This document shows positions 47,946 to 58,696 of a stretch of 64,000 bases of DNA, one piece after another. The translations under genes and the position numbers were made by a program. How positions within the stretch are numbered: position 1 is the stretch's first letter; every line of letters begins with the position of its first letter. Below the pieces are notes generated by a model. That model was not told the origin of the DNA. It made no database searches and saw only the letters and a program-made list of their open reading frames with translations. The DNA comes from Thermoplasmatales archaeon (GTDB lineage Archaea > Thermoplasmatota > Thermoplasmata > Thermoplasmatales > GCA-001856825), in assembly GCA_027343225.1 (NCBI GenBank), contig DAHWMK010000005.1:98630-162629 (forward strand). The letters run 5' to 3'.

Positions 47946-49010
47946 ATGTTTGACGAAGAAACCGTAAACGCTTTTTCAGGTGGATATAAGGTTTCGGAGT
48001 CTGGTGTTGACACTTTGTTTGGACTACCAGCTTTTTCAAATCTGAAGAAGATTATAGCTTTTCCTGTCTCCATATCAATAAACGCCTTAGTTAGGAGAGG
48101 AAGTTCGGTTTCCTACCACGGCACGAACTCAATAGAACTTCCGTTCGAGATGTCCAAACTCTCCAATGATTGGTATGATCCGGTAAAGCTCATGACCAAT
48201 ATCGCAATTCAGAGAGGGTGGACTCATGCACCAACAATTCTAGTCGAAGAGAATCTTGGATATCAACTATCTATGGGTTATTATTCTGCATTCGTTGACC
48301 TGCTAGTTCAGTCCTTTTCGTTAGTCAATGATGTCACGCTCAGTACTTCGGAGTTCACTCAAATCAGTGGAGAAATTCAAGACAGAATTCGCGGACAGCA
48401 TTATGAACACGAGACAATAGCTAGGAAGCACGGAAAGGAAGGGAACCTGCTTTTCTATGATGTTTTAACAAGATCCTACAAGAATGAGAGTGTCAACTTC
48501 GAACCTTTCTCAATGTTCCTCATTTCTGAGAATTCTCTGACTTCGAACCAAAACTACTTGAATTTTCAGAAGAATTTCAAGAAATTTAACGAACGGAATA
48601 TGATAGGCAAGGATCCATCCTCTCTAGGTTATCCATACGTCGGAATAAGAAATCATCTTATGGCGGAAGAGGAGACGTATGGTCGAGCCATGGAGTCATT
48701 TTATGGCAATGACACAGAATCGTTCATCTCGATCATATCAAAATTTTCACAGTCTCTGGGATACAACCTTGGGGTAATTTCTGATTTTCAGCGGACAATG
48801 GCAAAACTCCTAGAAAGATATTCTGTAAAGACCTTTGTATTCAACATCAGTGAATATTCAGGTTCAATCTTGGTATTTGCTGATTCACTTGAGCTTTCAA
48901 GGATCAAGGACAATGTGATAAGAGACTATTACAATCTGGTAAATAGAACGATTAGATTAGATGAGCTTGTAATCTCGGGTAGTTCGACTAGCGAACTCAT
49001 CAGGATCTAA
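47946..49010 (+). CDS. Hypothetical protein, possibly a GHMP-kinase-like fold with degenerate motifs
   Basis: 354 aa. The size and layout resemble GHMP kinases, but the phosphate-binding motif is degenerate (ENLGYQLSMGYYSAFVDLL where P-x-GSGLGSSAA is expected). This is a weak, memory-based call. Confidence 0.5.
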   Translation: MFDEETVNAFSGGYKVSESGVDTLFGLPAFSNLKKIIAFPVSISINALVRRGSSVSYHGTNSIELPFEMSKLSNDWYDPVKLMTNIAIQRGWTHAPTILVEENLGYQLSMGYYSAFVDLLVQSFSLVNDVTLSTSEFTQISGEIQDRIRGQHYEHETIARKHGKEGNLLFYDVLTRSYKNESVNFEPFSMFLISENSLTSNQNYLNFQKNFKKFNERNMIGKDPSSLGYPYVGIRNHLMAEEETYGRAMESFYGNDTESFISIISKFSQSLGYNLGVISDFQRTMAKLLERYSVKTFVFNISEYSGSILVFADSLELSRIKDNVIRDYYNLVNRTIRLDELVISGSSTSELIRI

Positions 49011-55674: not shown

Positions 55675-55962
55675 CTATAGAAACCTGAGAGCTTCCCGTC
55701 CCTTCATTCCTTCCCTTACTCCCTTTTCCCGCGCCTTTGCACTAATTTTGCCGACATCTTTGTTTAGAAGGTCCTCAAAGGAGTTTACTCCAGAAATGGA
55801 GACGGCAATTGCGCCTGTTTTATCAGCTGCCTCCATGTTGAGATATCCGCACATCAGGAAACCATTCCTACCATTTATGACAACTATTGGTGCGGGCTTC
55901 GTTTCTATTTTGACCCCGGTATAAACTTCCCCGTCTATAGATAGGTTTTCAATCTGTATCAT
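55675..55962 (-). CDS. DUF1805 (YunC-like) protein
   Basis: 95 aa. VVINGRNGFLMCGYLNMEAADKTG ... GVNSFEDLL ... AREKGV matches my recollection of DUF1805. The start overlaps the polymerase stop by 14 nt. Confidence 0.7.
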   Translation of the reverse strand: MIQIENLSIDGEVYTGVKIETKPAPIVVINGRNGFLMCGYLNMEAADKTGAIAVSISGVNSFEDLLNKDVGKISAKAREKGVREGMKGREALRFL

Positions 55963-57931
55963 ACTCTTGGATACTCGTTTGGTGTATTATAGATTGATGT
56001 CTGTATGGGTATGATATGCTCTCCCAGGACATCTCCAATTTTCTGAGATAATAATTCTTGTCATACCTGTTCTCGAGGTTTTCAATGTCTACGGTCCCTC
56101 TTTTCTCGTTTATGACAAACATCGATAACTTGTCCCCAGGTCCAGCATTATTCGCCTTTTCAATGGCTCTTCTTCTTATTCCATTGACTTTGTAGAATTC
56201 TGGTCGACGTGTGGCAACTATTGACAGTCTAAGTTCCGAGTCCTCGACGTCACCGCTTATCAACCTTTCCTTGTATGAATCGTAAATGGCTCTAACCTCG
56301 TTGTAGTGGTCATGAAACTCTTCTATTTTCGTTACCCTGGCATAGATCTTTAGTATTTCCTCCTGCATCTCTTTGCATATTTTTGGAAAATCTGTTCGTC
56401 GAAGTTCTATTCCTCTAACCTTGAATTTTCCATTGTCCATTAGTCCAAAGTATCTGTTCAGAGCCCCGCTTCCATCTCTAGCGGGAAGGAAGACGATCCA
56501 CTTATAGAATCCTTCTAGTGAGATCTTCAGCCTGCTCATTTCATCTATCTGGCTTATTACCTTTTGTACATTCCCGTCTCCTTGAAGCCAGATTGAGTCG
56601 ACTATTCCGTGTATAGTTCTAAAGCCTTCATTTTCTGCTATCTTAACGCTCTCCGTAAGTATCTTTCTTCCAAGGCAGGTTATAGATTCGTGAACTTCTA
56701 TCCTGCCAAACTTTGCATTTTTGTAACCGGTATAGCCGAACGACGTCAAGAGGAGCCACTTGAGGACTGCATCCCTTCTTCTGAATCTCTCGTCCGAGCT
56801 CTTCTTGCTTTTGTAATAGAGCCTGAGATCAAGAAGGTCAGACAGAAAATCGGATAGCATACCCCTCTTGTCTAGGCAGATTTCGTAGCCGAGGTCTTCT
56901 ATTCTCATGGATTTTTGGCACCTTACGTTGATAGTTTCCGGTGAGAGATTATAGTTGACTATTATGGATGGATACATCGAACTGAAGTCTAGTTCATAGA
57001 CTTCCTCGTAAATGCCTGGTATGGGTTGAAGGTACAGTCCACCTCTATCTGCACTTATGAACGTGTCTAAATCCTTTATCATCTCGTGATCATCCTTGTA
57101 AAGAGGAATCATTATTCCCTTCTCCAGAGATTTTCTTACTTCATACGACGATACTGCAGTTCCGGGAGTAATGCGGGCGGAATGAAAAAGAGGCAGAGAA
57201 GTAATCTTGGAGATGGTCGCCAACCCTTCAAGTCCACCTTCGCTAAAAATAAACGATGTATCCCCGTCGATGTGAGGTATCCCATAAACATTGAAACCGC
57301 TAGTCCTATGACTGATCCTTCCGTACGAAGTGAACGTTCTTTCCCTGCTTCTCGAGGTTTTGGCGGAATATCCCTGCATCTTAGCAACTGCAAAGAACTC
57401 CGGAAAGTACCTATCTCCTCCTTCGGAAACAATCAGATTGGCTTCCTTCAGGTTTGAAAAGAAGAAATCGAACGAGGAGGAGAGATTGGTGAACAGCTCG
57501 CCATTGATCTCGATTTCTTCCAGAGAATTGATGAATTTTATGTTAAGTATGTTGAGATCAGGTATTTCGAAATCCTTCCTCACGTCATCGCCGAAAAAGT
57601 GTAAGTTGTTTTTGACCATGAATGACTGAACAACGTTTATATCTGCATTATAGACCTTATAATCTCTGAAATTTCCAATCTTTTCTATTGCAAGAATTAG
57701 GTCTCCTATCCTATTGGGTGGAATAGTTATACTCACTACTTTTTTTCTTGAAAAAATGTCTTCGTGCTCTTCCAGTTTCCATCTTATCCAGGGTACCAAG
57801 TCTATCTCATCTGTTAGTTTTTCTAACCGTTCCCCAGCAACGTATATTGTATGGTTGTAATTCCATTTCTTAATATTTCTGTATTCGTCTATGGTGTACA
57901 GGGCCTTTCCTCCCCAAGCATCAACGATCAT
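55949..57931 (-). CDS. Short family-B DNA polymerase paralogue (PolB2/Dpo2-like); the exonuclease motifs are degenerate and motif C is non-canonical
   Basis: 660 aa. Motif A LDFSSMYPSIIVNYNLSPET, motif B-like KWLLLTSFGYTGYKNAKFG, and motif C IHGIVDSIW instead of Y-x-DTD-[GS]. There is no FDIET-type Exo I (LNILNIKFIN at the equivalent place). Confidence 0.85.
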   Translation of the reverse strand: MIVDAWGGKALYTIDEYRNIKKWNYNHTIYVAGERLEKLTDEIDLVPWIRWKLEEHEDIFSRKKVVSITIPPNRIGDLILAIEKIGNFRDYKVYNADINVVQSFMVKNNLHFFGDDVRKDFEIPDLNILNIKFINSLEEIEINGELFTNLSSSFDFFFSNLKEANLIVSEGGDRYFPEFFAVAKMQGYSAKTSRSRERTFTSYGRISHRTSGFNVYGIPHIDGDTSFIFSEGGLEGLATISKITSLPLFHSARITPGTAVSSYEVRKSLEKGIMIPLYKDDHEMIKDLDTFISADRGGLYLQPIPGIYEEVYELDFSSMYPSIIVNYNLSPETINVRCQKSMRIEDLGYEICLDKRGMLSDFLSDLLDLRLYYKSKKSSDERFRRRDAVLKWLLLTSFGYTGYKNAKFGRIEVHESITCLGRKILTESVKIAENEGFRTIHGIVDSIWLQGDGNVQKVISQIDEMSRLKISLEGFYKWIVFLPARDGSGALNRYFGLMDNGKFKVRGIELRRTDFPKICKEMQEEILKIYARVTKIEEFHDHYNEVRAIYDSYKERLISGDVEDSELRLSIVATRRPEFYKVNGIRRRAIEKANNAGPGDKLSMFVINEKRGTVDIENLENRYDKNYYLRKLEMSWESISYPYRHQSIIHQTSIQEYDTD

Positions 57932-58146
57932 TTGAATTCTTTTTTTATTTCTATCAGCACAAAGAGAAGAAATGAGAAATAAGGATCTAGGCTCGTTATA
58001 GAGCCCTCTGGAATGTGAAGCTTGGTCTTTTTTATGAAGTCTTCCACTATATCTCTATCACGATTGTTCATCAATCTTTCAGCCTTTCTTATCTCTTCCG
58101 TTATACTTTCTATTTCCATTCTAAGGCTAGGGGTGTTTCTTCCCAT
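57928..58146 (-). CDS. Hypothetical 72-aa protein, translationally coupled to the PolB2-like gene
   Basis: ATG start. Its TGA overlaps the polymerase ATG (ATGA). Charged helical N-terminus with a hydrophobic C-terminal segment. Confidence 0.45.
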   Translation of the reverse strand: MGRNTPSLRMEIESITEEIRKAERLMNNRDRDIVEDFIKKTKLHIPEGSITSLDPYFSFLLFVLIEIKKEFK

Positions 58147-58580
58147 CTCTTAACGACCTCGAGTATCTTCCTGCGGAATACGTTGTCCAACCAAGGCGGT
58201 CTAAACTCCTCGTCTCCGACTAAATATACTATGCTGGGTGTCTCTGTCCGTCTAGATATCTCTTCTAGTGCGCTCGATATATTAAGCAACACGTCTTCCT
58301 TCCACTCCTTCAATTCAGAGAGCCTGACCACAATGAAAATAGAGAAATCGTCATAGTAAAAATCCTCAACTATGGTTTTCTGAAACTGATACATATTAAG
58401 AATCCTCTGTATGTATAATTGATTTCCAAGTTTCCTTTTTAAATAATGGGCATCAACAAACACCCCATCCCCAAGTAGCAGGAGAGTCTTTCCATAGCTA
58501 TTCACGAAATCTTCGAGGAGAATCGAATTGAACTCTTCCATTTCCATGAGATATGAATGTCTCGGATTCGCCCTGAACAT
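58110..58580 (-). CDS. Hypothetical 156-aa protein, first gene of the PolB2-like cassette
   Basis: ATG start with a TATA-like AAAGTTAAAATATC about 20-32 nt upstream. The 3' end overlaps the 72-aa ORF. No family recognised. Confidence 0.5.
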   Translation of the reverse strand: MFRANPRHSYLMEMEEFNSILLEDFVNSYGKTLLLLGDGVFVDAHYLKRKLGNQLYIQRILNMYQFQKTIVEDFYYDDFSIFIVVRLSELKEWKEDVLLNISSALEEISRRTETPSIVYLVGDEEFRPPWLDNVFRRKILEVVKRWEETPLALEWK

Positions 58581-58696
58581 ATATAAAAATCAGTGTGTCG
58601 ATATTTTAACTTTATAGCTCTTAATGAAAAATGAAAAAATTGAAAAAATGATTTTTTAGCAAAAACTCATAAATAAAGTCGAACTCCAACACAACA

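What the first reader, a model, noticed from the sequence alone, without database searches (positions are those of the whole stretch)
55675..58580. Translationally coupled four-gene cassette: 156-aa unknown, 72-aa unknown, exonuclease-dead PolB2-like polymerase, DUF1805
Four co-directional reverse-strand ORFs overlap one another:
- 58580-58110: 156-aa unknown protein.
- 58146-57928: 72-aa unknown protein, overlapping the first by 37 nt (10 nt if Met10 is the start).
- 57931-55949: 660-aa family-B polymerase, with an ATGA overlap.
- 55962-55675: DUF1805 protein, with a 14-nt overlap.

The polymerase keeps motif A (LDFSSMYPSII) and a recognisable motif B. Motif C reads HGIVDS where replicative archaeal PolBs have Y-x-DTD-[GS]: the first Asp is replaced by Ile and the second is kept. 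The KKRY block is absent, and the Exo I position lacks acidic residues (LNILNIKFIN versus FDIET).

This is the signature of the short 'inactivated' PolB2/Dpo2 clade. Its Sulfolobales member has been reported to act in damage tolerance.

I do not recognise the tight coupling to DUF1805 and two small proteins as a described arrangement. By analogy with the small PBP1/PBP2 subunits of crenarchaeal PolB1, these could be dedicated accessory subunits of a specialised polymerase complex. This is my best candidate for an undescribed system in the window.
Basis: partly seen in the sequence, partly recalled or inferred. Interest (0 to 1): 0.7.

Follow-up and report, generated by a model that had tools for sequence, protein, structure and literature searches.

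The report
Known PolB2 repair-polymerase operon plus DUF1805
The four overlapping genes are real, but three of them are the already described archaeal iRadA-PPB2-PolB2 damage-tolerance polymerase operon, and the fourth (DUF1805) is attached to it only in this archaeon's close relatives, with no sign of a wider link to DNA repair.

Summary
All four reverse-strand ORFs and their overlaps (37, 4 and 14 nt) are confirmed.

- **660-aa protein:** a PolB2/Dpo2-type family-B polymerase. Motif A Asp is kept, motif C DTD is IVD, the PolB2-specific D-R motif is present, and the exonuclease half is not alignable.
- **72-aa "unknown":** PPB2 (arCOG07300). It has the N-terminal MGR..R9 arm, and its family matches haloarchaeal PPB2 (hhalign 97%, E 8.5e-11).
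- **156-aa "unknown":** a minimal RecA/RadA-fold protein without a P-loop (AF2 pLDDT 84; Foldseek top hits UvsX, RecA, RAD51, KaiC). It matches the published description of iRadA, in a very diverged form limited to Thermoplasmatales.

The order iRadA-PPB2-PolB2 is the published "type 1a" PolB2 operon (Makarova 2014; Timinskas 2025). It occurs in 78 of 78 Thermoplasmatales loci with upstream DNA, and two of these carry iRadA-PPB2 fusions.

DUF1805 (YunC/TA1206 family) follows PolB2 only in the window's own I-plasma-like clade: 22 of 23 genome loci, and none of 57 more distant ones. Elsewhere it sits beside unrelated genes.

A conserved direct-repeat element upstream of the operon was noticed in passing.

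The parts
58110..58580 (-). iRadA: a 156-aa inactivated RadA/RecA-fold partner of PolB2. It has no P-loop and no N-terminal HhH domain, and its C-terminal tail (residues 142-156) is disordered.
   Evidence: AF2 on 25 homologues: pLDDT 83.9, pTM 0.80. Foldseek top PDB hits are UvsX 9gbg (6e-5), RecA 2oes and 1mo6, KaiC, and RAD51 5nwl. No Pfam or PDB sequence hit. A homologue lies directly upstream of PPB2-PolB2 in 78 of 78 loci. It is fused to PPB2 in L024 and L046. Family invariants are D38, G39, R59, Q65 and W93, with no GxxxxGK[ST].
57928..58146 (-). PPB2 (arCOG07300): the 72-aa small helical 'partner of PolB2', with the N-terminal MGR(N/T)..R9 arm.
   Evidence: The N-terminus is MGRNTPSLR. 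M1, G2, R3 and R9 are invariant in 22 family members. The published hallmark is the 'MGRT' arm with Arg3 and Arg9 (PMC11791011 section 3.3.1). hhalign against haloarchaeal PPB2 gives probability 97%, E 8.5e-11, over 78 columns.
55949..57931 (-). PolB2/Dpo2-type family-B DNA polymerase, 660 aa, with a decayed exonuclease half. Motif A D315, motif C H441-GIVDS-446, D295-R296 motif.
56594..56611 (-). Codons for motif C, HGIVDS. The first Asp of the canonical DTD is replaced by Ile and the second is kept.
   Evidence: It aligns to 'YSDTDG' of KOD-type PolB and is invariant in 20 homologues. The same 'IVD' class is tabulated for PolB2 in the supplement of PMC11791011.
57044..57049 (-). Codons for D295-R296, the PolB2-specific D(K/R) motif. 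In published models this motif contacts the PPB2 N-terminal arm.
   Evidence: 'ADRGG': D295 is invariant and position 296 is R or K in 19 of 20. The motif is described in PMC11791011 section 3.3.2.
55958..55981 (-). C-terminal Q-T-S-I-Q-E-Y-D of PolB2 (residues 651-658), a PIP-box-like (QxxIxxYD) candidate PCNA-binding tail.
   Evidence: The pattern Q-x-x-[IML]-x-[ED]-Y-D is kept in all 9 close-clade sequences aligned. Reading it as a PCNA-binding motif is inference only.
55675..55962 (-). DUF1805/YunC-family protein, 95 aa, homologous to T. acidophilum TA1206. It overlaps the PolB2 stop by 14 nt. It is a clade-specific fourth gene.
   Evidence: Pfam PF08827 at 2e-22. PDB 1QW2 at 3e-17. AF2 pLDDT 95, with TM 0.95 to 1QW2. 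It lies downstream of PolB2 in 22 of 23 close-clade loci and in none of 57 distant ones.
58627..58651 (-). Three tandem direct repeats, TCATTTTT-TCAATTTTT-TCATTTTT, 47-71 nt upstream of the iRadA ATG. Candidate operator or activator site of the operon.
   Evidence: Unique in the 64-kb window, with 0 expected by chance. Nearly invariant in an otherwise unconserved intergenic region across 14 aligned loci. A two-unit version, CTCATTTnCTCATTTT, sits at the same place in distant Thermoplasmatales.
58601..58617 (-). TATA-like box, CTATAAAGTTAAAATAT, 21-37 nt upstream of the iRadA ATG. The position is compatible with a leaderless or short-leader transcript.
   Evidence: Conserved in alignment A9. 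The function is inferred from position only.

Best explanation
The cassette is the Thermoplasmatales version of the archaeal PolB2 (Dpo2) translesion-synthesis operon in the published gene order 1a, iRadA-PPB2-PolB2. In the I-plasma-like clade a DUF1805/YunC gene has been added at the 3' end.

**Likely mechanism, taken from the family and not shown here:**
- One promoter drives all the genes. It has a TATA-like box and an upstream direct-repeat element.
- Overlapping stops and starts couple translation.
- PolB2 lacks proofreading and carries an I-x-D catalytic motif. It assembles with one iRadA and a PPB2 trimer.
- The MGR..R9 arm of PPB2 inserts between PolB2 and iRadA, near the DNA.
- The complex extends primers past lesions or mismatches, probably after DNA damage. 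This gives damage tolerance at the cost of mutations.

**Shown here:**
- Identity of the three core proteins.
- Order-wide conservation of the gene order and overlaps.
- Natural iRadA-PPB2 fusions.
- The clade-limited presence of DUF1805.

**Inferred:**
- Complex formation, TLS activity, damage induction and PCNA binding through the QxxIxxYD tail.

DUF1805 is most likely an operon passenger, or a local accessory of unknown role.
For: **PolB2**
- Pfam and NCBIfam hits.
- Motifs checked against solved PolBs and 20 homologues.
- D295-R296 matches the PolB2 D(K/R) motif.

**PPB2**
- MGRNTPSLR, with invariant M1, G2, R3 and R9.
- The same N-terminus occurs in the haloarchaeal operon proteins.
- hhalign gives 97%, E 8.5e-11.

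**iRadA**
- A confident AF2 model with RecA/UvsX/RAD51/KaiC as top folds.
- It occupies the same operon slot as the haloarchaeal partner, which hits RAD51/RadA in the PDB at 5.6e-8.
- It has no Walker A.

**Conservation**
- 78 of 78 loci carry iRadA and PPB2 directly upstream.
- Fusions occur in L024 and L046.
- The overlaps are conserved: -37 nt, ATGA and -14 nt.

**Literature**
- The operon and the modelled complex: PMC4104785 and PMC11791011.
- Dpo2 is damage-inducible through Orc1-2 (PMC6061795).
- A 2026 review (PMC13324097) reports Dpo2 to be a mismatch-extending, mutagenic TLS enzyme, citing PMC8764526 and PMC7390963. I did not read those two papers.

**DUF1805 as an add-on**
-.
Against: - The 156-aa family has no significant sequence similarity to RadA or to haloarchaeal iRadA. 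Its assignment rests on predicted fold, operon position and a short shared block.
- Foldseek TM-scores normalised to the query are only 0.5-0.6.
- There is no transcript evidence. Three metatranscriptomes from a study holding this sequence have no contig on the locus.
- No orc1/cdc6, lexA, SRAP or DUF72 gene lies nearby, unlike many published PolB2 loci.
- All biochemistry is extrapolated from Sulfolobales.
- The conserved 14-nt overlap of DUF1805 with PolB2 across a clade that spans 53-85% PolB2 identity is more than a passenger strictly needs.
Confidence: 0.85

Rival explanations
1. DUF1805 is a genuine fourth subunit or dedicated accessory of the PolB2 complex in the I-plasma-like clade. 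It would act for example as an assembly, nucleotide-binding or clamp-related factor, which would make this a four-component variant of the mutasome.
For: - It overlaps the PolB2 stop in all 21 close-clade genome loci where the junction was measured (14 nt in 15 of them), in the window, and in 9 metagenomic loci. This holds across 53-85% PolB2 identity.
- DUF1805 has no assigned function.
- Its C-terminal ~25 residues recurrently resemble the 'ARKFGVxxGM' segment of Y-family polymerases. 14 of 24 members give weak IMS hits, best E 0.0029.
- Foldseek gives tight local matches to Pol eta, Rev1 and Dpo4.
Against: - It is absent from all 57 more distant Thermoplasmatales PolB2 operons, where a convergent gene follows PolB2.
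- It is cleanly missing in the clade member L017, although the three core genes remain.
- In 32 of 40 metagenomic DUF1805 loci with enough upstream DNA, no PolB2, iRadA or PPB2 is nearby.
- Its neighbours elsewhere are the Ta1207 family and L44e, M24 peptidase, ArgJ, a PLP enzyme, and FTR/FTCD/FTHFS.
- It is not among the neighbourhood enrichments of the 2025 survey.
- The Y-family resemblance fails significance: hhalign probability 2%, no Y-family hit for the family profile in the PDB, and Foldseek E above 1.
Confidence: 0.12
2. The polymerase is truly inactive. The three-protein complex would then be a structural or regulatory factor, for example at stalled forks or in replication initiation, as proposed in 2014, rather than a TLS polymerase.
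For: - The first catalytic Asp of motif C is lost and the exonuclease domain has decayed.
- Makarova et al. raised this possibility (PMC4104785).
Against: - The motif A Asp, the second motif C Asp, the motif B Lys and the KxY Tyr are all invariant. That argues for retained catalysis.
- As reported in the abstract of PMC11791011 and a 2026 review, S. islandicus Dpo2, with the same I-x-D motif, is required for targeted mutagenesis and extends mismatches.
Confidence: 0.08
3. The small upstream ORFs are chance or mis-called ORFs, and only the polymerase is a gene.
For: Neither small ORF has a significant Pfam, NCBIfam or PDB sequence match.
Against: - Both have homologues in the same position in 78 of 78 loci, with E down to 1e-59.
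- The AF2 model is confident.
- The profile match to haloarchaeal PPB2 is significant.
- Natural fusions exist.
Confidence: 0.01

Closest known systems
Archaeal PolB2 (Dpo2) operon, or 'PolB2 mutasome': iRadA-PPB2-PolB2, gene-order type 1a (Makarova, Krupovic & Koonin 2014, PMC4104785; Timinskas, Timinskas & Venclovas 2025, PMC11791011)
   Same: - The same three families in the same order and orientation, with overlapping genes.
- PolB2 with I-x-D in place of D-x-D, a D(K/R) motif and a decayed exonuclease domain.
- PPB2 with the MGR..R9 N-terminal arm.
- A P-loop-less RecA-fold partner.
- Occasional iRadA-PPB2 fusions.
   Different: - iRadA here is only about 150 aa. It is so diverged that HMM and HH comparisons to RadA or to haloarchaeal iRadA fail, and only 10 clusters are found among 1.84 billion representatives.
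- No orc1/cdc6, SRAP or DUF72 gene is nearby.
- In one clade, an extra overlapping DUF1805 gene follows PolB2.
Saccharolobus/Sulfolobus islandicus Dpo2 (SiRe_0614/0615): a damage-inducible, Orc1-2-dependent TLS extender polymerase (PMC6061795; PMC7390963 and PMC8764526 as cited in PMC13324097)
   Same: - The same polymerase group and the same Ile-for-Asp replacement in motif C.
- A short T-rich...C element upstream of the promoter. The Sulfolobales DDRE is ANTTTC; here the repeats are TCATTTT(T).
   Different: - A different phylum.
- No experimental data exist for any Thermoplasmatales member.
- The upstream element here is a 2-3-unit direct repeat, and its regulator is unknown.
E. coli Pol V mutasome (UmuD'2-UmuC-RecA-ATP)
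   Same: It works in a similar way: a specialised error-prone polymerase with a small dimeric or trimeric partner and one RecA-family protomer, expressed from a damage-controlled operon (the analogy is drawn in PMC11791011).
   Different: - The catalytic subunit belongs to the Y family, not the B family.
- RecA is the active housekeeping recombinase, not a dedicated inactive paralogue.
- The small subunits are not homologous.
PBP1/PBP2 small subunits of crenarchaeal PolB1
   Same: They are small proteins that bind a family-B polymerase and form a holoenzyme.
   Different: - They belong to the replicative PolB1, not to PolB2.
- The 156-aa and 72-aa proteins are assigned here to other families (iRadA, PPB2).
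DUF1805 / YunC family (Pfam PF08827; T. acidophilum TA1206, PDB 1QW2)
   Same: The 95-aa protein is a full-length member: 2e-22 to the Pfam model, and TM 0.95 to 1QW2.
   Different: In Thermoplasma-like DNA it lies between a Ta1207-family gene and ribosomal protein L44e. Only in the I-plasma-like clade is it fused into the PolB2 operon.

Membership tests
PolB2/Dpo2 group of family-B DNA polymerases | Family-B polymerase domain with motifs A, B and C recognisable. | tested here: met
   Pfam DNA_pol_B at 5.3e-22. NCBIfam NF004416 at 517.6 bits against a cutoff of 516. Alignment to KOD-type PolB over residues 236-648.
PolB2/Dpo2 group of family-B DNA polymerases | First Asp of the motif C DxD replaced and the second kept. 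This is typical of the group but not universal. | tested here: met
   HGIVDS aligns to YSDTDG and is invariant in 20 homologues.
PolB2/Dpo2 group of family-B DNA polymerases | Exonuclease active site missing, with the domain decayed. | tested here: met
   Residues 1-235 do not align to any solved PolB exonuclease domain. There is no invariant DxE or acidic pair; the invariant residues in 1-235 are G86, N95, F113, G187, S202, Y203, G204, G217, S226 and E231. No 3-D model of the polymerase was made.
PolB2/Dpo2 group of family-B DNA polymerases | Conserved D(K/R) motif in the loop before motif A. | tested here: met
   D295-R296 in 'ADRGG'. The motif is defined in PMC11791011.
PolB2/Dpo2 group of family-B DNA polymerases | Encoded together with iRadA and PPB2. 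| tested here: met
PolB2/Dpo2 group of family-B DNA polymerases | Translesion or mismatch-extension activity, and induction by DNA damage. | not testable with these tools
   Known only for Sulfolobales Dpo2. No transcripts were found in three metatranscriptomes.
PPB2 (arCOG07300) | N-terminal 'MGRT' arm with conserved Arg3 and Arg9. | tested here: met
   MGRNTPSLR. M1, G2, R3 and R9 are invariant in 22 members. Position 4 is N in the window and T in many members of the family.
PPB2 (arCOG07300) | Homology to recognised PPB2 proteins. | tested here: met
   hhalign against the proteins in the PPB2 slot of five haloarchaeal loci: probability 97%, E 8.5e-11, 78 columns. Haloarchaeal operons of this layout are classed as 1a in the paper's supplement.
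PPB2 (arCOG07300) | Small three-helix protein forming a trimer. | not tested
   The length of 72 aa fits. Oligomer state is not testable here.
iRadA (inactivated RadA paralogue; arCOG07763/04294/08101) | RecA/RadA ATPase-core fold. | tested here: met
   AF2 pLDDT 83.9, pTM 0.80. Foldseek top 50 hits are mostly RecA, UvsX, RAD51, DMC1 and KaiC, with E from 6e-5 and TMq 0.5-0.6.
iRadA (inactivated RadA paralogue; arCOG07763/04294/08101) | ATPase residues (Walker A) lost, and the N-terminal RadA domain absent. | tested here: met
   156 aa. There is no conserved GxxxxGK[ST]; the invariants are only D38, G39, R59, Q65 and W93.
iRadA (inactivated RadA paralogue; arCOG07763/04294/08101) | Detectable sequence relationship to RadA/Rad51 or to other iRadA proteins. 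| tested here: not met
   Profile against PDB and Pfam finds nothing. hhalign against haloarchaeal iRadA gives probability below 1%. Only a short block is shared (IQRILTsYQ ~ ARGFTaYQH ~ RAD51 YARGFNTDHQ). The 2014 paper notes that one iRadA arCOG is detectable only by HHpred. So this weakens the family claim but does not exclude it.
iRadA (inactivated RadA paralogue; arCOG07763/04294/08101) | Binds PolB2 through a Rad51-oligomerisation-like motif in PolB2. | not testable with these tools
   No multimer modelling is available. The PolB2 segment before D295-R296 is conserved (K279, D281, E283, K286), but no clear FxxA motif is present.
DUF1805 / YunC (PF08827) | Match to the Pfam model above the gathering score, and the TA1206 fold. 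| tested here: met
   79.6 bits against a cutoff of 29.5. 1QW2 at E 3.4e-17. The model has TM 0.95 and rmsd 1.1 to 1QW2.
Y-family DNA polymerase (IMS, PF00817), considered for the DUF1805 C-terminus | Significant similarity to the IMS domain. | tested here: not met
   IMS scores 14.6 bits against a cutoff of 23.2. The best of 24 members is E 0.0029. hhalign against 6 Y-family polymerases gives probability 2%. No PDB hit for the family profile.

The most novel reading that the evidence does not exclude
In the I-plasma-like Thermoplasmatales, the DUF1805/YunC protein has been recruited as a fourth, translationally coupled component of the PolB2-iRadA-PPB2 translesion complex. That would give this widespread orphan family its first functional context. 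A related possibility is that the conserved TCATTTT(T) direct repeats are the operator of a euryarchaeal DNA-damage regulon.
Probability: 0.12. Interest if true: 0.55.

Novelty: new member of a known kind. Interest (0 to 1): 0.3.

Why it matters
- The finding re-labels two "hypothetical proteins" that public annotation leaves unnamed. They become the iRadA and PPB2 subunits of a damage-tolerance polymerase in acid-mine-drainage Thermoplasmatales.
- The three-gene operon is universal in the 78 Thermoplasmatales loci examined.
- The iRadA here is a stripped-down RecA fold of about 150 aa. It may be useful for defining the minimal PolB2-binding surface.
- The DUF1805 linkage is probably not a new system. 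It is still a cheap, testable lead for an orphan family.
- The conserved upstream direct repeats offer a handle on DNA-damage regulation in Euryarchaeota. The only characterised archaeal DNA-damage regulator I found is Orc1-2 of Sulfolobales.

Tried and rejected
1. **Sequence-level identification of the 156-aa protein.** Pfam, NCBIfam, a PDB profile search, and hhalign to haloarchaeal iRadA all gave nothing significant. An exhaustive profile search of 1.84 billion representatives found only 10 clusters and no bridge to RadA. That search used the close-clade alignment A3, because the broader A2 contains sequences the tool does not accept.

2. **DUF1805 as a fragment or relative of Y-family polymerases.**
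   - The weak IMS hits recur in 14 of 24 members.
   - Foldseek lists local matches to Pol eta, Rev1 and Dpo4.
   - The family profile finds no Y-family chain in the PDB.
   - hhalign against six real Y-family sequences gives probability 2%.
   - Rejected as homology and kept only as a motif-level curiosity.

3. **Transcript evidence for co-transcription.** There are no RNA contigs on the locus in three metatranscriptomes. This is uninformative.

4. **Bacterial-type promoter and terminator scan.** Not applicable to archaea, and the counts were at chance level.

5. **Mobile element or horizontally acquired island.** Rejected. GC content is flat at 0.41-0.42, the flanks are housekeeping genes, and part of the downstream neighbourhood recurs across the clade.

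6. **Met10 as the start of the 72-aa protein.** Rejected, because residues 1-9 are the most conserved part of the family.

7. **Coverage of this clade by the 2025 survey.** The held, truncated supplement has no PolB2 with the Thermoplasmatales signature TSFGYTGYKNAKFG. I cannot tell whether the survey included it.

Full report
**1. Observation**

| Coordinates (- strand) | Length |
|---|---|
| 58580-58110 | 156 aa |
| 58146-57928 | 72 aa |
| 57931-55949 | 660 aa |
| 55962-55675 | 95 aa |

- The overlaps are 37 nt, 4 nt (ATGA) and 14 nt.
- Pfam calls the 660-aa protein DNA_pol_B (5.3e-22) and the 95-aa protein DUF1805 (2e-22). It finds nothing significant in the two small ORFs.
- NCBIfam places the polymerase just above the cutoff of NF004416, "type B DNA-directed DNA polymerase".
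- GC content is flat across the region.
- The flanking genes are housekeeping genes: M19 dipeptidase, a PUA protein, adenylosuccinate synthetase, an ABC1 kinase, GNAT, glutamate dehydrogenase and spermidine synthase.

**2. Source organism**

- The closest polymerase homologues (54-85% identity) come from uncultured Thermoplasmata/Thermoplasmatales genomes.
- A second tier at 36-43% identity includes Oxyplasma, Cuniculiplasma, E-plasma, Thermoplasma and Ferroplasma.
- One close locus is "Thermoplasmatales archaeon I-plasma" (L012, 78% identity).
- The DNA is found in mine-drainage and sediment metagenomes.

**3. The polymerase**

Alignment to KOD-type PolB structures and across 20 homologues gives this picture:

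| Feature | Finding |
|---|---|
| Motif A | LDFSSMYPS, D315 kept |
| Motif B | K391...TSFGYTGY |
| Motif C | HGIVDS: the first Asp of DTD is Ile, D445 is kept, invariant |
| Residues 1-235 | Not alignable to any solved exonuclease domain; no conserved acidic pair |
| D295-R296 ("ADRGG") | Matches the PolB2-specific D(K/R) motif described in PMC11791011 |
| C-terminus | QTSIQEYD(TD), a PIP-like pattern kept in the clade; PCNA binding is inference only |

**4. The arrangement is already described**

- Makarova, Krupovic and Koonin (2014, PMC4104785) reported that PolB2 genes sit in a predicted operon with two partners. One is a small (~90 aa) helical protein, arCOG07300. The other is an inactivated RadA paralogue, one version of which is "deteriorated so severely" that only HHpred detects it.
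- Timinskas et al. (2025, PMC11791011) renamed these partners PPB2 and iRadA. They catalogued the gene orders (1a = iRadA-PPB2-PolB2) and the fusions. They also modelled a PolB2:iRadA:PPB2x3 complex.
- In that model the N-terminal "MGRT" arm of PPB2, with Arg3 and Arg9, inserts between PolB2 and iRadA.
- Experimental work on Sulfolobales Dpo2 shows Orc1-2-dependent induction by DNA damage (PMC6061795).
- A 2026 review (PMC13324097) reports mutagenic, mismatch-extending TLS activity for Dpo2. It cites PMC8764526 and PMC7390963, which I did not read.

**5. The 72-aa protein is PPB2**

- It begins MGRNTPSLR.
- In 22 Thermoplasmatales family members M1, G2, R3 and R9 are invariant.
- On haloarchaeal plasmids, the proteins in the same slot of cdc6-(~230 aa)-(~90 aa)-PolB2 operons begin MGRTNPTYR.
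- The two families match over their full length (hhalign probability 97%, E 8.5e-11).
- The paper's supplement classes haloarchaeal operons of this layout as type 1a.

**6. The 156-aa protein fits iRadA**

- Sequence methods fail.
- An exhaustive profile search finds only 10 clusters, all close relatives.
- AlphaFold2 on 25 homologues gives a confident alpha/beta model (pLDDT 83.9, pTM 0.80). Its best PDB matches are UvsX, RecA, RAD51, DMC1 and KaiC, with E from 6e-5 and TMq 0.5-0.6.
- The family has no Walker A motif.
- The haloarchaeal protein in the same operon slot does hit RAD51/RadA by sequence (5.6e-8).
- One block is shared: Thermoplasmatales IQRILTsYQ ~ haloarchaeal ARGFTaYQH. In that hit the block aligns to RAD51 "YARGFNTDHQ".
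- I treat iRadA membership as well supported by fold and context, with the sequence criterion not met.

**7. Conservation of the core operon**

- I examined 80 genome loci centred on PolB2 relatives.
- All 78 loci that have upstream DNA carry the 156-aa and 72-aa families directly upstream, in the same order.
- In L024 and L046 the two families are fused into one ORF, as the 2025 paper describes for other lineages.
- The overlaps are conserved:
  - iRadA/PPB2: 37 nt in all 22 close-clade loci that have upstream DNA, and 19-25 nt in many others.
  - PPB2/PolB2: ATGA in 40 loci.
- The conserved "WEE" near the iRadA C-terminus is written by the same nucleotides as the PPB2 "MGR" in the other frame.

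**8. DUF1805**

- The protein is a full member of PF08827. It is homologous to T. acidophilum TA1206 (PDB 1QW2, E 3.4e-17) and is modelled at pLDDT 95 with TM 0.95 to 1QW2.
- It follows PolB2, overlapping its stop, in 22 of the 23 close-clade loci. L017 has lost it cleanly.
- It follows PolB2 in none of the 57 more distant loci, where a convergent gene of about 370 aa comes next.
- A metagenome scan seeded on TA1206 returned 80 DUF1805 loci. Only 9 have PolB2, iRadA and PPB2 upstream, and all 9 are of the window's type. Among the 40 loci with at least 2.1 kb upstream, 8 have PolB2.
- Its neighbours elsewhere are unrelated to repair:
  - the Ta1207 family and ribosomal L44e
  - M24 peptidase
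  - ArgJ
  - HTH regulators
  - a PLP enzyme
  - FTR, or FTCD with FTHFS
- The 2025 survey lists orc1/cdc6, lexA, SRAP and DUF72 as enriched neighbours, not DUF1805.
- I conclude that the adjacency is a clade-specific addition. A local functional link is possible but unsupported.

**9. A lead that did not hold**

- The DUF1805 C-terminus (...ISAKAREKGVREGMKGREAL) resembles the Y-family polymerase segment "...ARKFGVRSAMP...".
- The weak Pfam IMS hit recurs in 14 of 24 diverse members. Foldseek lists tight local matches to Pol eta, Rev1 and Dpo4 with E above 1.
- The family profile finds no Y-family chain in the PDB.
- hhalign against six real Y-family polymerases aligns the same segment at only 2% probability.
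- This is not evidence of homology.

**10. Regulation**

- The intergenic region upstream of iRadA is unconserved except for two elements:
  - a TATA-like box (58601-58617)
  - three direct repeats, TCATTTTT-TCAATTTTT-TCATTTTT (58627-58651)
- The repeats are unique in the window and present across the close clade.
- Distant Thermoplasmatales carry a two-unit version, CTCATTTnCTCATTTT, at the same position.
- The Sulfolobales damage-response element bound by Orc1-2 is ANTTTC, at -23 to -55. Some distant-clade repeats contain ATTTTC. That resemblance is a lead, not a test.
- No transcripts were found in three metatranscriptomes.

**11. Verdict**

It is wrong that the arrangement is undescribed.
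- The locus is a new member of the known iRadA-PPB2-PolB2 operon family. It has an unusually reduced iRadA and a lineage-specific DUF1805 gene at the 3' end.

Noticed in passing
window 58627-58651 (- strand); also L002-L023 about 70 nt upstream of the iRadA start, and L025-L069 (alignment A10): Three tandem direct repeats, TCATTTTT-TCAATTTTT-TCATTTTT, lie just upstream of a TATA-like box. They are nearly invariant in an otherwise unconserved intergenic region and are unique in the 64-kb window. Distant Thermoplasmatales carry a two-unit CTCATTTnCTCATTTT at the same place. This is a candidate regulator binding site, loosely reminiscent of the Sulfolobales Orc1-2 element ANTTTC.
   Followed up: partly
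L024:5243-5917 and L046:5237-5896: In two Thermoplasmataceae/Thermoplasmata genomes the 156-aa (iRadA) and 72-aa (PPB2) families are fused into one ORF of about 220 aa. The internal MGRT/VGRT motif is retained.
   Followed up: partly
window 58110-58146 (- strand): The conserved 'WEE' near the C-terminus of the 156-aa family is encoded by the same nucleotides as the invariant 'MGR' start of PPB2 in the overlapping frame. Its conservation probably reflects PPB2, not iRadA.
   Followed up: partly
L017:7989-8428: One close-clade genome (63% PolB2 identity) lacks DUF1805. The convergent 142-aa ORF (the same size and position as the window's 142-aa PUA-domain gene; not annotated here) directly follows PolB2, and the three core genes are intact.
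   Followed up: partly
window 55958-55981 (- strand), PolB2 residues 651-658: A PIP-box-like tail, Q-T-S-I-Q-E-Y-D, sits at the PolB2 C-terminus and is conserved as Q-x-x-[IML]-x-[ED]-Y-D in the clade. Its last codons overlap the DUF1805 start.
   Followed up: no
window 55675-55800 (- strand), DUF1805 residues ~62-93: The C-terminal helix-turn-helix '...SAKAREKGVREGMKGREAL' resembles the Y-family polymerase segment '...ARKFGVxxGMP'. Weak IMS hits occur in 14 of 24 family members, but hhalign probability is only 2%.
   Followed up: yes
L083:2321-3540 and L084:546-4291: In two distant lineages DUF1805 lies directly after one-carbon metabolism genes: formylmethanofuran-H4MPT formyltransferase in one, and FTCD plus formate-tetrahydrofolate ligase in the other. 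This could be a hint to the family's usual context.
   Followed up: no
L068-L071 (PolB2 region): In four distant loci the nearest in-frame PolB2 start lies 158-413 nt downstream of the PPB2 stop. This suggests frameshifted, N-terminally truncated or mis-assembled polymerase genes.
   Followed up: no
window 47946-49010 (+ strand): A 354-aa ORF has no Pfam match at E <= 1e-5, although it sits among well-annotated housekeeping genes.
   Followed up: no
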